Source of the DNA: a virus
Taxonomy: Duplodnaviria > Caudoviricetes
Virus record (IMG/VR): IMGVR_UViG_3300023172_000037
Coordinates: 1-54,271 of that record
Strand: one strand, 5' to 3'
DNA length: 54,271 nucleotides
The position numbers were made by a program, and so were the translations under genes. The notes beneath the pieces are model-generated. The model worked only from the letters and a program-made list of their open reading frames with translations, had not been told where the DNA came from and did not search any database. Shown here piece by piece: positions 52,336 to 52,494 of this stretch (positions within the stretch are counted from its first letter, which is position 1; each line of letters starts with the position of its first letter).

Positions 52336-52494
52336 TTGTGGCTGGTGTGCTTCTACGCCAAATGAGACTGCCGCATATTTGCATCACGACCCCGCATATG
52401 CTCAGGGCTGGAGTGTTTCTCCACACGCATCTACTGTTTGGTAGATCCAACTCTTTAAATGATGGCTGCTTCTAAGCCAACATCCCTGCCACAA
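52336..52494 (-). ncRNA. structured ncRNA mimicking the 23S rRNA GTPase-associated centre (H43/H44) with a 91-nt insert
   Basis: GGATGTTGGCTTAGAAGCAGCCATCATTTAAAGAGT...GCGTAGAAGCACAC enclosed by a TTGTGGC/GCCACAA stem. Confidence 0.8.

What the first reader, a model, noticed from the sequence alone, without database searches (positions are those of the whole stretch)
52336..52494. Free-standing phage RNA that mimics the ribosomal GTPase-associated centre (23S H43/H44, uL11/thiostrepton site)
Seen: minus-strand 52485-52452 reads GGATGTTGGCTTAGAAGCAGCCATCATTTAAAGA, which from memory matches E. coli 23S ~1055-1088 (H43 with the A1067 loop). After GT and a 91-nt insert (52449-52359) it resumes as GCGTAGAAGCACAC, like H44 GCGTAATAGCTCAC (A1095 loop). 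A non-rRNA helix TTGTGGC-A-GG/CC-A-GCCACAA closes the domain. No other rRNA sequence flanks it. It is the last unit of an operon (promoter 52768-52796, three tRNA/tRNA-like genes, this RNA, terminator 52300-52325), so tRNA processing would release it. Retaining both loops with a new closing stem argues for selection rather than a random rRNA scrap. Established: this rRNA domain folds autonomously, binds uL11 and thiopeptides, and contacts translational GTPases and RelA. Inference: a decoy that titrates uL11 (damping the stringent response), translation factors, or ribosome-targeting defence toxins.
Basis: partly seen in the sequence, partly recalled or inferred. Interest (0 to 1): 0.93.

Follow-up and report, generated by a model that had tools for sequence, protein, structure and literature searches.

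The report
Phage RNA copying ribosome's GTPase-associated centre
This uncultured marine phage makes, at the end of a small tRNA operon, a 159-base RNA that rebuilds the piece of 23S ribosomal RNA that binds protein uL11 and meets the translation GTPases, and it belongs to a large phage RNA family that I could not find described anywhere.

Summary
Window 52485-52452 (minus strand) is 34/34 identical to 23S rRNA H43. After an 87-nt arm, an H44-like hairpin follows and a private stem closes the domain. It sits between tRNA-Thr and a terminator, behind a 12/12 consensus promoter.

It is not an rRNA scrap. Three pattern scans of viral contigs gave 162 distinct RNAs of the same build, also in cultured phages GAP32, CBB, XacN1, XaC1 and Aeromonas 4_4572.

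- Secondary-structure covariation is strong: 18 of 25 pairs change on both sides, 0/500 shuffles match.
- The tertiary triple 1072·(1092-1099) covaries: C·(C-G) 56, U·(U-A/U-G) 33, 2 exceptions of 91. So the 3D fold is kept.
- The family mark (A at 1101, an arm inserted beside A1088) points to one origin.
- No Rfam 15 family matches, and ten literature searches found no description.

Function is untested. Most likely it acts off the ribosome as a mimic of that site, with host uL11 the likeliest ligand; no carrier phage encodes uL11 (0/50). Expression is not shown.

This scan met the same family on other DNA at least seven times.

The parts
52768..52796 (-). sigma-70-type promoter of the unit (TTGACA, 17 nt, TG-TATAAT)
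   Evidence: 12 of 12 hexamer matches. It is the only 12/12 site among 6 promoter-like sites in 52000-54271 (shuffles give a mean of 5.2 sites).
52652..52740 (-). tRNA-like gene with a long variable arm, first in the unit
   Evidence: RF01852 (tRNA-Sec) 25.4 bits, E 0.01, below the gathering score of 47. ARAGORN does not call it.
52576..52646 (-). tRNA-Gln(CTG)
   Evidence: RF00005, 61.2 bits
52499..52570 (-). tRNA-Thr(GGT), ending 4 nt before the RNA's closing stem
   Evidence: RF00005, 49.9 bits; sequence read
52336..52494 (-). The whole GAC-mimic RNA, from closing stem to closing stem (159 nt)
   Evidence: Model R1 matches 52333-52498 end to end at 105.9 bits, E 2.3e-33. It is the only match in the window.
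52485..52494 (-). 5' strand of the closing stem (H42-like); pairs with 52336-52345
   Evidence: In the family, 9 of the 10 pairs of this helix change on both sides.
52459..52483 (-). H43-like hairpin (positions 1057-1081); A1067 is at 52473
   Evidence: It lies inside the 34/34 match to 23S rRNA. The 1058-1080 pair covaries: U-A 16, G-C 10, A-U 9.
52450..52458 (-). Junction strand UUAAAGAGU: the 1082-1086 pair, G1087, bulged A1088, then the family-specific G-U
   Evidence: The 1082-1086 pair covaries: U-A 21, C-G 11, A-U 3. G1087 and A1088 are 83/83; A1084 and A1085 are 80/80.
52363..52449 (-). Inserted arm: helix P-ins (52449-52447 with 52365-52363) carrying three or four hairpins
   Evidence: P-ins pairs covary (4 of 4 pairs with changes on both sides). 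The arm's 3' half resembles that of L066.
52345..52362 (-). UUU linker and H44-like hairpin with hexaloop GUAGAA. G1091 at 52358, C1092 at 52357, A1095 at 52354, G1099 at 52350, family-specific A1101 at 52348, C1104 at 52345
   Evidence: Family frequencies: A1101 55/57 and 91/91 (never U, the base the Salmonella 23S rRNA has there); A1095 55/57 and 84/91.
52299..52325 (-). Intrinsic terminator (8-bp stem, GAGA loop, T run)

Best explanation
The 159-nt RNA belongs to a large, apparently undescribed family of phage non-coding RNAs. They rebuild the three-dimensional fold of the 23S rRNA GTPase-associated centre (top of H42, H43, H44), closed by a private stem, with an extra variable arm that leaves the junction beside A1088.

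Shown:
- the sequence match
- the family
- secondary and tertiary covariation
- placement among tRNA genes
- absence from Rfam

Inferred:
- It is transcribed from its own strong promoter together with three tRNA or tRNA-like genes, and tRNA 3' processing frees its 5' end.
- It accumulates as a stable RNA and works away from the ribosome as a copy of that site.
- Its most likely ligand is the host's own uL11, whose C-terminal domain recognises exactly this fold.
- The resulting RNP would withdraw uL11 from ribosomes, weakening uL11-dependent RelA activation, or would present a uL11-RNA surface to whatever else reads that site.
For: - Match to rRNA: 34/34 identity to 23S rRNA H43, and an H44-like hairpin.
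Of these, 92 have the H43 motif and 14 more match model R1 at E <= 6.1e-8.
- Independent anchor: in the H43-anchored scan of 82 loci, 80 are family by regex, one more (L258) by eye, and 1 is true rRNA.
- Diversity: 162 distinct RNAs with 130 insert clusters.
- Secondary structure: 88.8% of cells paired against 67.2% in shuffles; 18/25 pairs change on both sides; covariation score 0.559 against 0.148; 0/500 shuffles reach it.
- Tertiary fold: 1072·(1092-1099) is C·(C-G) 56, U·(U-A) 26, U·(U-G) 7, with 2 exceptions; Fisher p = 1.7e-22.
- Invariant bases: U1066, G1071 and A1098 are 91/91 (where they were not fixed by the pattern); G1059 and U1060 are 82/82, A1084 and A1085 80/80, A1088 83/83, A1077 80/82.
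- The tip is looser: A1067 is A in 67/91. This fits recognition of the fold rather than of the tip.
- Position 1061 is A or G in 49/91. By my recall, U1061A stabilises the isolated domain.
- Genome context: 31/62 loci have a tRNA within 700 nt, all on the same strand, and 25/62 have one within 100 nt.
- Carriers: 44/50 carrier records encode tRNAs. Carriers encode no uL11 of their own, 0/50 and 0/16 of the near-complete ones, with 14/14 positive controls.
- Copy number: R1 matched all 50 records, once in 39 of them; most extra matches are split hits over long arms.
Against: - No binding, expression or phenotype data exist. The RNA-library contigs over the region are true rRNA of other organisms.
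- The inserted arm leaves the junction next to A1088, and A1090-U1101 is replaced by G·A. I could not check whether this clashes with the uL11 surface, because no RNA 3D tool was available.
- uL11 is about as abundant as ribosomes and is mostly ribosome-bound. Titration would need very high RNA levels or exchange of uL11 off ribosomes.
- A1095 is well kept (84/91 and 55/57), which fold recognition alone may not require.
- Each scan fixes some positions, R1 was built from pattern-selected sequences, and related sequences inflate the Fisher test.
Confidence: 0.5

Rival explanations
1. Substrate decoy. The RNA soaks up host or competitor enzymes that attack this rRNA site (ADP-ribosyltransferases, nucleases, methyltransferases), sparing ribosomes. 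This would parallel the proposal that phage tRNA arrays replace tRNAs destroyed by defence nucleases.
For: - A bacterial toxin aimed at this very site exists. Tre23 ADP-ribosylates 23S rRNA H44, mapped to bases 1095-1098 within 1043-1123 (PMC8661411, passages read).
- Defence effectors that cut rRNA and tRNA are documented (bioRxiv 10.64898/2026.07.14.738597, passages read).
- The RNA sits among tRNA genes.
- A1095 and A1098 are well conserved (55/57 and 56/57).
Against: - 1096 and 1097, inside the mapped Tre23 target, are the most variable loop positions (A/G/U and U/C/A).
- No anti-phage defence system is known to me that targets H43/H44.
- A decoy must outcompete tens of thousands of ribosomes.
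- Tre23 was mapped on rRNA from treated ribosomes. I did not check whether it acts on the free domain.
Confidence: 0.18
2. Direct factor or tRNA binder. Alone or with uL11, the RNA binds what normally touches this site on the ribosome (EF-G, EF-Tu ternary complex, IF2, RF3, RelA, or the tRNA elbow). It thereby modulates host translation or the stringent response, or handles the phage's tRNAs.
For: - Both loop tips are mostly kept (A1067 67/91, A1095 84/91).
- It is co-transcribed with tRNAs.
- Two related members (L078, L054) carry in their arm a hairpin that reads like the sarcin-ricin loop, the other half of the factor-binding site (2 of 86). The sarcin-ricin consensus is recalled.
- By recall only, EF-G binds isolated oligonucleotide copies of both sites (Munishkin and Wool 1997, not seen here).
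Against: - A1067 is G in 22/91.
- Some members have a different H44 loop altogether (L335/L383).
- The sarcin-ricin-like hairpin is in one lineage only.
- Isolated-domain affinities for factors are weak (recall).
Confidence: 0.12
3. Scaffold. The rRNA-like core is only a very stable folding chassis, and the variable arm carries the function.
For: - Arms reach about 400 nt.
- Some arm modules are conserved and covary. One example is the CACC-hairpin-UAAGG module in 17 of 86 members.
Against: - The arm is the least conserved part: 130 clusters among 162 RNAs.
- It can be a plain hairpin with a gap of only about 24 nt.
- The core is conserved across all members.
Confidence: 0.1
4. Cis element of the tRNA transcript or of the downstream gene: a processing signal, 3' end protector or leader.
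For: It is the last RNA before the terminator here, 50 nt upstream of the next ORF.
Against: - Its position varies in the family. A same-strand tRNA lies within 100 nt upstream in 20 loci and downstream in 15, and 31/62 loci have no tRNA within 700 nt.
- No flanking ORF family recurs. The largest clusters were frames that overlap the RNA itself.
- A terminator separates it from the next gene.
- A processing signal would not need an rRNA tertiary fold.
Confidence: 0.05
5. Captured rRNA scrap, pseudogene or chimeric assembly with host rRNA.
For: 34/34 identity to rRNA. Assembly graphs break at this stretch: DNA-run contigs end at 52479 and start at 52456.
Against: - No further rRNA lies on either side.
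- Each DNA contig carries phage sequence plus at least 24 nt of the shared stretch.
- The same architecture, with its own signature (A1101, inserted arm), is in 80-81 of 82 H43-anchored viral hits. It is also in complete genomes of cultured phages.
- There is compensatory change in every helix.
Confidence: 0.01

Closest known systems
GTPase-associated centre of bacterial 23S rRNA (top of H42, H43, H44; E. coli 1051-1108; the uL11/thiostrepton-binding fragment)
   Same: - H43 is identical over 34 nt.
- The H44 stem and a hexaloop of the same type are present.
- The 1082-1086 pair is present.
- The 1072·(1092-1099) triple covaries.
- The bases kept unchanged are those I recall as forming the tertiary core.
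   Different: - It is not part of an rRNA gene, and it is closed by its own stem.
- A helix and a variable arm are inserted between A1088 and 1090, making a four-way junction.
- A1090-U1101 is replaced by G·A, with A1101 55/57 and 91/91.
- A1067 is relaxed (67/91).
- It is phage-encoded and lies among tRNA genes.
rRNA mimics that bind ribosomal proteins in cis: bacterial r-protein leaders (listing of PMC7247131) and the plant 5S rRNA mimic P5SM in TFIIIA pre-mRNA (recalled)
   Same: An RNA outside the ribosome copies an r-protein's rRNA binding site.
   Different: - Those sit in the mRNA of the protein they sense and regulate it. This one is a separate stable RNA in a virus that encodes no uL11 (0/50).
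- Its likeness to the rRNA is far closer than in leaders.
Large ornate RNAs of phage tRNA arrays, GOLLD and ROOL (PMC12286853, listing and abstract); T4 tRNA-cluster stable RNAs of unknown function (recalled)
   Same: Phage-borne structured RNAs next to tRNA genes, with no function established (by my recall).
   Different: No sequence or model match (Rfam). This family has an identifiable cellular model structure.
Phage RNA mimicry used against host systems: pseudo-ToxI of phage ΦTE (PMC3475682, listing and abstract)
   Same: A phage-made RNA that imitates a host RNA to neutralise a host protein.
   Different: That mimic is an antitoxin repeat acquired by escape mutants of one phage. This is an ancient, widespread copy of a ribosomal functional centre, and its target is unknown.

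Membership tests
23S rRNA GTPase-associated centre fold (H42 top/H43/H44) | H43 hairpin with the 1065-1073 loop sequence | tested here: met
   34/34 identity to annotated 23S rRNA. In the family, U1066 and G1071 are 91/91.
23S rRNA GTPase-associated centre fold (H42 top/H43/H44) | H44 hairpin: G1091-C1100 and C1092-G1099 closing a G-U-A-N-N-A hexaloop | tested here: met
   The window has GCGUAGAAGC at 52358-52349. In the H43-anchored set, G1091 57/57, G1093 57/57, U1094 57/57, A1095 55/57, A1098 56/57.
23S rRNA GTPase-associated centre fold (H42 top/H43/H44) | Tertiary base triple 1072·(1092-1099) linking the H43 loop to H44. The existence of this triple in rRNA is recalled (Conn, Gutell and Draper 1998, not seen here). 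| tested here: met
   C·(C-G) 56, U·(U-A) 26, U·(U-G) 7, 2 exceptions of 91; Fisher p = 1.7e-22. The window has C, C-G.
23S rRNA GTPase-associated centre fold (H42 top/H43/H44) | 1082-1086 pair and bulged A1088 in the junction | tested here: met
   1082-1086 is U-A 21, C-G 11, A-U 3, unpaired 3. A1088 is 83/83.
23S rRNA GTPase-associated centre fold (H42 top/H43/H44) | Three-way junction with H43 running straight into H44, and the A1090-U1101 pair | tested here: not met
   An 87-nt arm begins with covarying helix P-ins. Position 1101 is A and never U; 1090 is G in 50/57.
23S rRNA GTPase-associated centre fold (H42 top/H43/H44) | Binds uL11 (and thiopeptides) as an isolated domain | not testable with these tools
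   No RNA-protein or RNA 3D tool was available; it needs a binding assay.
23S rRNA gene or fragment | Flanked by further rRNA sequence | tested here: not met
   No rRNA model hit in the window. The flanks are tRNA-Thr and a terminator. In contrast, L003 and L312 are true rRNA.
Any Rfam 15 family (GOLLD, ROOL, tRNA-like, leaders and so on) | Covariance-model match | tested here: not met
   Nothing at gathering score or at E <= 10 over 52336-52494. In 20 other members, only two partial LSU_rRNA hits of 22-24 bits appeared, over model positions 1096-1145.
Ribosomal-protein autoregulatory leader | Lies in the 5' UTR of the r-protein gene it controls | tested here: not met
   No uL11 domain in 0/50 carrier records. 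Here a terminator follows, and the neighbours are tRNAs.

The most novel reading that the evidence does not exclude
Phages carry a portable, off-ribosome copy of the ribosome's factor-binding site. The GTPase-associated-centre fold is loaded with host uL11 and, in at least one lineage, joined to a sarcin-ricin-like hairpin. It captures a translational GTPase or RelA, or absorbs enzymes aimed at that site. Its output would be coupled to the phage's tRNAs. This would be a new class of viral decoy: an imitation of a functional centre of the ribosome itself.
Probability: 0.3. Interest if true: 0.95.

Novelty: categorically new. Interest (0 to 1): 0.88.

Why it matters
If the family works as an imitation of the uL11/GTPase site, it reveals a way of manipulating translation or the stringent response that has not been described: a virus copying a functional centre of the ribosome as a free RNA.

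It is directly testable. The rRNA domain is one of the best-studied RNA folds, with established uL11 and thiopeptide binding assays, and cultured carriers exist (GAP32, CBB, XacN1, XaC1, Aeromonas phage 4_4572).

The family also gives well over a hundred natural variants of this fold, including the tertiary-triple swap. They are useful for RNA folding studies.

Finally, it flags a trap. The 34-nt rRNA-identical stretch breaks assemblies and attracts rRNA reads, which may be one reason the family has been overlooked.

Tried and rejected
- Expression: one run search and one read-laying on three salt-marsh metatranscriptomes and one DNA run. RNA contigs cover only 52449-52487 at huge depth. Their loose ends continue as true rRNA of other organisms, so nothing can be said about transcription of the phage RNA.
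- Prokaryote genomes: only 4 of 120 pattern matches are family (L167, L188, L200, L208). This shows neither absence nor prevalence in bacteria.
- Near relatives of the window among cultured phages: none by megablast of 12.3 kb.
- Other rRNA pieces in the arms: blastn-short against a real 23S (L003) gave only 10-15-nt matches at E 0.006-0.9 outside the H43/H44 region. I rejected them as chance.
- Conserved neighbouring protein: all-against-all of flank ORFs from 153 loci gave only frames overlapping the RNA and near-identical loci.
- tRNA-adjacency control: the 'non-family' control loci were mostly family members after all. As a rough bound instead, 1022 tRNA matches in about 7.3 Mb of carrier records put at most about a fifth of the sequence within 700 nt of a tRNA, against 31/62 observed.
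- Constrained folding of the whole RNA: the constraint was not applied, so I folded the arm alone. The unconstrained MFE (z = -2.9) does not recover H44, as expected for a fold held by tertiary contacts.
- Literature: ten searches found no description. Subscription journals and supplements were not searched.

Full report
**What is there**

Read on the minus strand, the stretch after tRNA-Thr (52499-52570) runs as follows:
- a 10-nt stem strand (52494-52485)
- a hairpin and junction (52483-52450)
- an 87-nt arm (52449-52363)
- UUU and a second hairpin (52362-52345)
- the complementary stem strand (52345-52336)
- ten bases, then an intrinsic terminator (52325-52306 plus a T run)

Bases 52485-52452 are 34/34 identical to records annotated as 23S rRNA. 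I fetched one, Salmonella LT2, and read it. After the shared ...TTTAAAGA, true rRNA goes straight on with AAGCGTAATAGCTCAC. The window instead has G, T, the arm, TTTG, and then GCGTAGAAGCACAC.

A perfect 12/12 sigma-70 promoter with an extended -10 lies at 52796-52768. Between it and the RNA lie a tRNA-like gene (52652-52740, sub-threshold tRNA-Sec model), tRNA-Gln and tRNA-Thr. The window is a 54-kb fragment, about 35% complete, of an uncultured phage. It carries a replication module and has no close cultured relative.

**It is a family, not a scrap**

The same search that matched rRNA also hit unannotated intergenic DNA of Aeromonas phage 4_4572, Xanthomonas phages XacN1 and XaC1, and Cronobacter phage GAP32. 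Pectobacterium phage CBB was added later. All five have the same layout: stem, H43 copy, arm, TTTGGCGT..AGCACAC, stem. The Paenibacillus phage Pd_22F hit is a long stretch of real 23S rRNA and was set aside.

I ran three scans of the viral collection, each anchored on a different part.

   - 92 have the H43 motif within 600 nt.
   - Of the other 27, model R1 matches 14 at E <= 6.1e-8 and 3 weakly.
   - About 10 look like chance matches.
2. H43-anchored: 82 loci, complete.
   - 80 have a split, family-type H44. One of these, L302, is doubtful.
   - L258 has a divergent family H44.
   - One locus (L312) is true rRNA.
   - No member lacked an arm.
   - 91 distinct sequences have a recognisable H44; in 12 matches none was found.
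   - Of the 12 without, some have a different H44 loop (L335, L383).

Over the 319 loci there are 162 distinct RNAs, 75-448 nt from H43 to H44 (median 190), with 130 unrelated arm clusters.

In prokaryote genomes only 4 of 120 pattern matches were family. Two carrier records are classed as proviruses.

**Structure**

On an alignment of 38 members (A1), the structure I wrote down has 25 pairs.
- 88.8% of cells pair, against 67.2% in shuffles and 31-52% when partners are slid.
- 18 pairs show changes on both sides.
- The covariation score is 0.559 against 0.148.
- 0 of 500 shuffles reach it.

The closing stem covaries in 9 of 10 pairs. 1058-1080 is U-A 16, G-C 10, A-U 9. 1082-1086 is U-A 21, C-G 11, A-U 3.

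All four of its pairs covary. The domain is therefore a four-way junction, and the 'insert' is an arm of the mature RNA. The arm ranges from a plain hairpin (about 24 nt; L122, L014, L042) to about 400 nt.

The strongest new result concerns tertiary structure. In the junction-anchored set, base 1072 in the H43 loop and pair 1092-1099 in H44 change together:
- C with C-G: 56
- U with U-A: 26
- U with U-G: 7
- exceptions: 2
- Fisher p = 1.7e-22, not corrected for relatedness

The U class spans arm lengths from 24 to 354 nt, so it is probably not a single clade. I recall this triple from work on the rRNA domain (Conn, Gutell and Draper 1998, not seen here).

Where a position was not fixed by the scan pattern, several bases never vary: U1066, G1071 and A1098 are 91/91; G1059 and U1060 are 82/82, A1084 and A1085 80/80, A1088 83/83. 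A1077 is 80/82. The exposed tip A1067 is A in only 67/91. A1095 is 84/91 and 55/57. Position 1061 is U 37, A 33, G 16, C 5.

The family has its own mark. 1101 is A and never U (55/57 and 91/91), whereas the Salmonella 23S rRNA read has U there. 1090 is mostly G. This points to one origin rather than repeated capture from hosts.

**Context**

- Of 62 loci with full flanks, 31 have a tRNA within 700 nt, always on the same strand, and 25 have one within 100 nt.
- Carrier records are mostly tRNA-rich: 44/50 have tRNAs, as do 15/16 of those at least 90% complete, with up to 60 per record. One 96%-complete carrier has none.
- R1 found the RNA in 50/50 of these records. In 39 it matched once, and most extra matches are split hits over long arms.
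- None encodes a uL11 domain (0/50, controls 14/14).
- No flanking protein family recurs.

**Is it known?**

- No Rfam 15 family matches the window RNA at gathering score or at E <= 10.
- No family matches 20 other members at E <= 0.1, apart from two short LSU rRNA hits.
- Ten full-text searches returned nothing on a phage copy of this site.
- The one paper that looked close (Mizuno et al., bioRxiv 10.1101/174177, passages read) is about phage-encoded ribosomal proteins.
- Earlier notes of this scan describe the same family on at least seven other genomes, and reached the same view.

**How it most likely works**

Shown: the fold is conserved by selection, the RNA is made with tRNAs, and the phage brings no uL11.

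Inferred: tRNA processing releases the RNA, and it folds on its own. A or G at 1061 in half the members would help, by recall. It then acts off the ribosome as a copy of the site.

Conservation is strongest in the fold-forming core and weaker at A1067. So I favour a ligand that reads the fold, and host uL11 is the obvious candidate (confidence about 0.5). Possible consequences are uL11-poor ribosomes and weaker RelA activation, or a uL11-RNA surface that occupies something else.

The main rival is a substrate decoy for enzymes aimed at this site. Tre23 shows that such enzymes exist (PMC8661411). However, its mapped target includes 1096-1097, which vary freely here.

A direct factor- or tRNA-binding role is kept alive by the conserved A1095. 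It is also supported by a sarcin-ricin-like hairpin in the arms of L078 and L054 (2 of 86).

Scrap, chimera, leader and processing-signal readings are rejected for the reasons given under the rivals.

**Limits**

- There is no expression evidence and no binding data.
- There is no 3D check of the arm against the uL11 surface.
- Each scan fixes some positions.
- R1 and alignment A2 lean on pattern-selected sequences.
- E. coli numbering and several facts about the rRNA domain are recalled, not tested here.

Noticed in passing
window 52652-52740 (-): The first gene of the unit is tRNA-like, with a roughly 20-nt variable arm and anticodon loop CUUAUAA. It scores 25.4 bits on the tRNA-Sec model (cut-off 47), and ARAGORN does not call it.
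   Followed up: partly
window about 53040-53125 (-): Between tRNA-Phe and tRNA-Ser lies another tRNA-like stretch: acceptor-like ends GCTTGTGAGG...CCTCTCAAGC and a T-arm-like GAGTTCGATCCTC. Neither ARAGORN nor Rfam calls it.
   Followed up: no
window 53177-53557 and 54037-54105 (-): The two tRNA finders disagree. ARAGORN's tRNA-Ser, Met and Tyr are not listed by Rfam. Rfam's tRNA at 54037-54105 is missing from ARAGORN. This suggests several atypical tRNAs.
   Followed up: no
L022 about 224-545 and 562-729: Two divergent copies of the RNA lie in tandem, followed by a tRNA. Copy 1 carries the U1072 / U1092-A1099 form of the triple, and copy 2 has a different arm.
   Followed up: partly
L078 and L054, inside the arm (about 273 nt into each extracted RNA): A hairpin reading AGUACGGGAGGAA (L078) or GGUACGAGAGGAA (L054), closed by a short stem. 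It looks like the sarcin-ricin loop (consensus recalled). Found in 2 of 86 members.
   Followed up: partly
L012, L044, L060, L090, L091, L094, L121: These members have a second insertion: an extra hairpin between the 3' strand of H43 and the UAAAGAG junction.
   Followed up: no
17 of 86 members, e.g. L025, L027, L032, L063 (3' end of the arm): A shared arm module, CACC + hairpin (CCN-tetraloop-N'GG) + UAAGG. The hairpin's third pair covaries (G-C, G-U, A-U, U-A) and the loops are GAAA, GAGA or UAAC.
   Followed up: partly
L335, L383, L409, L443: A subfamily whose H44 loop differs altogether (for example GGCCAGGAGGCAC), with H43 loop GGAUUAGAGGCGUCC. The tips are not universal in the family.
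   Followed up: no
L003 (Paenibacillus phage Pd_22F, MZ092003.1, about 82.5-85.1 kb): This phage record holds more than 2.6 kb of what reads as a genuine 23S rRNA gene in an unannotated gap. It may be contamination, misassembly or captured host DNA.
   Followed up: no
window 6562-7593, 19775-23566, 48331-49404 (-): Four glycosyltransferase-like genes and a nucleotide-sugar epimerase-like gene lie among the replication genes. They may belong to DNA or surface sugar modification.
   Followed up: no
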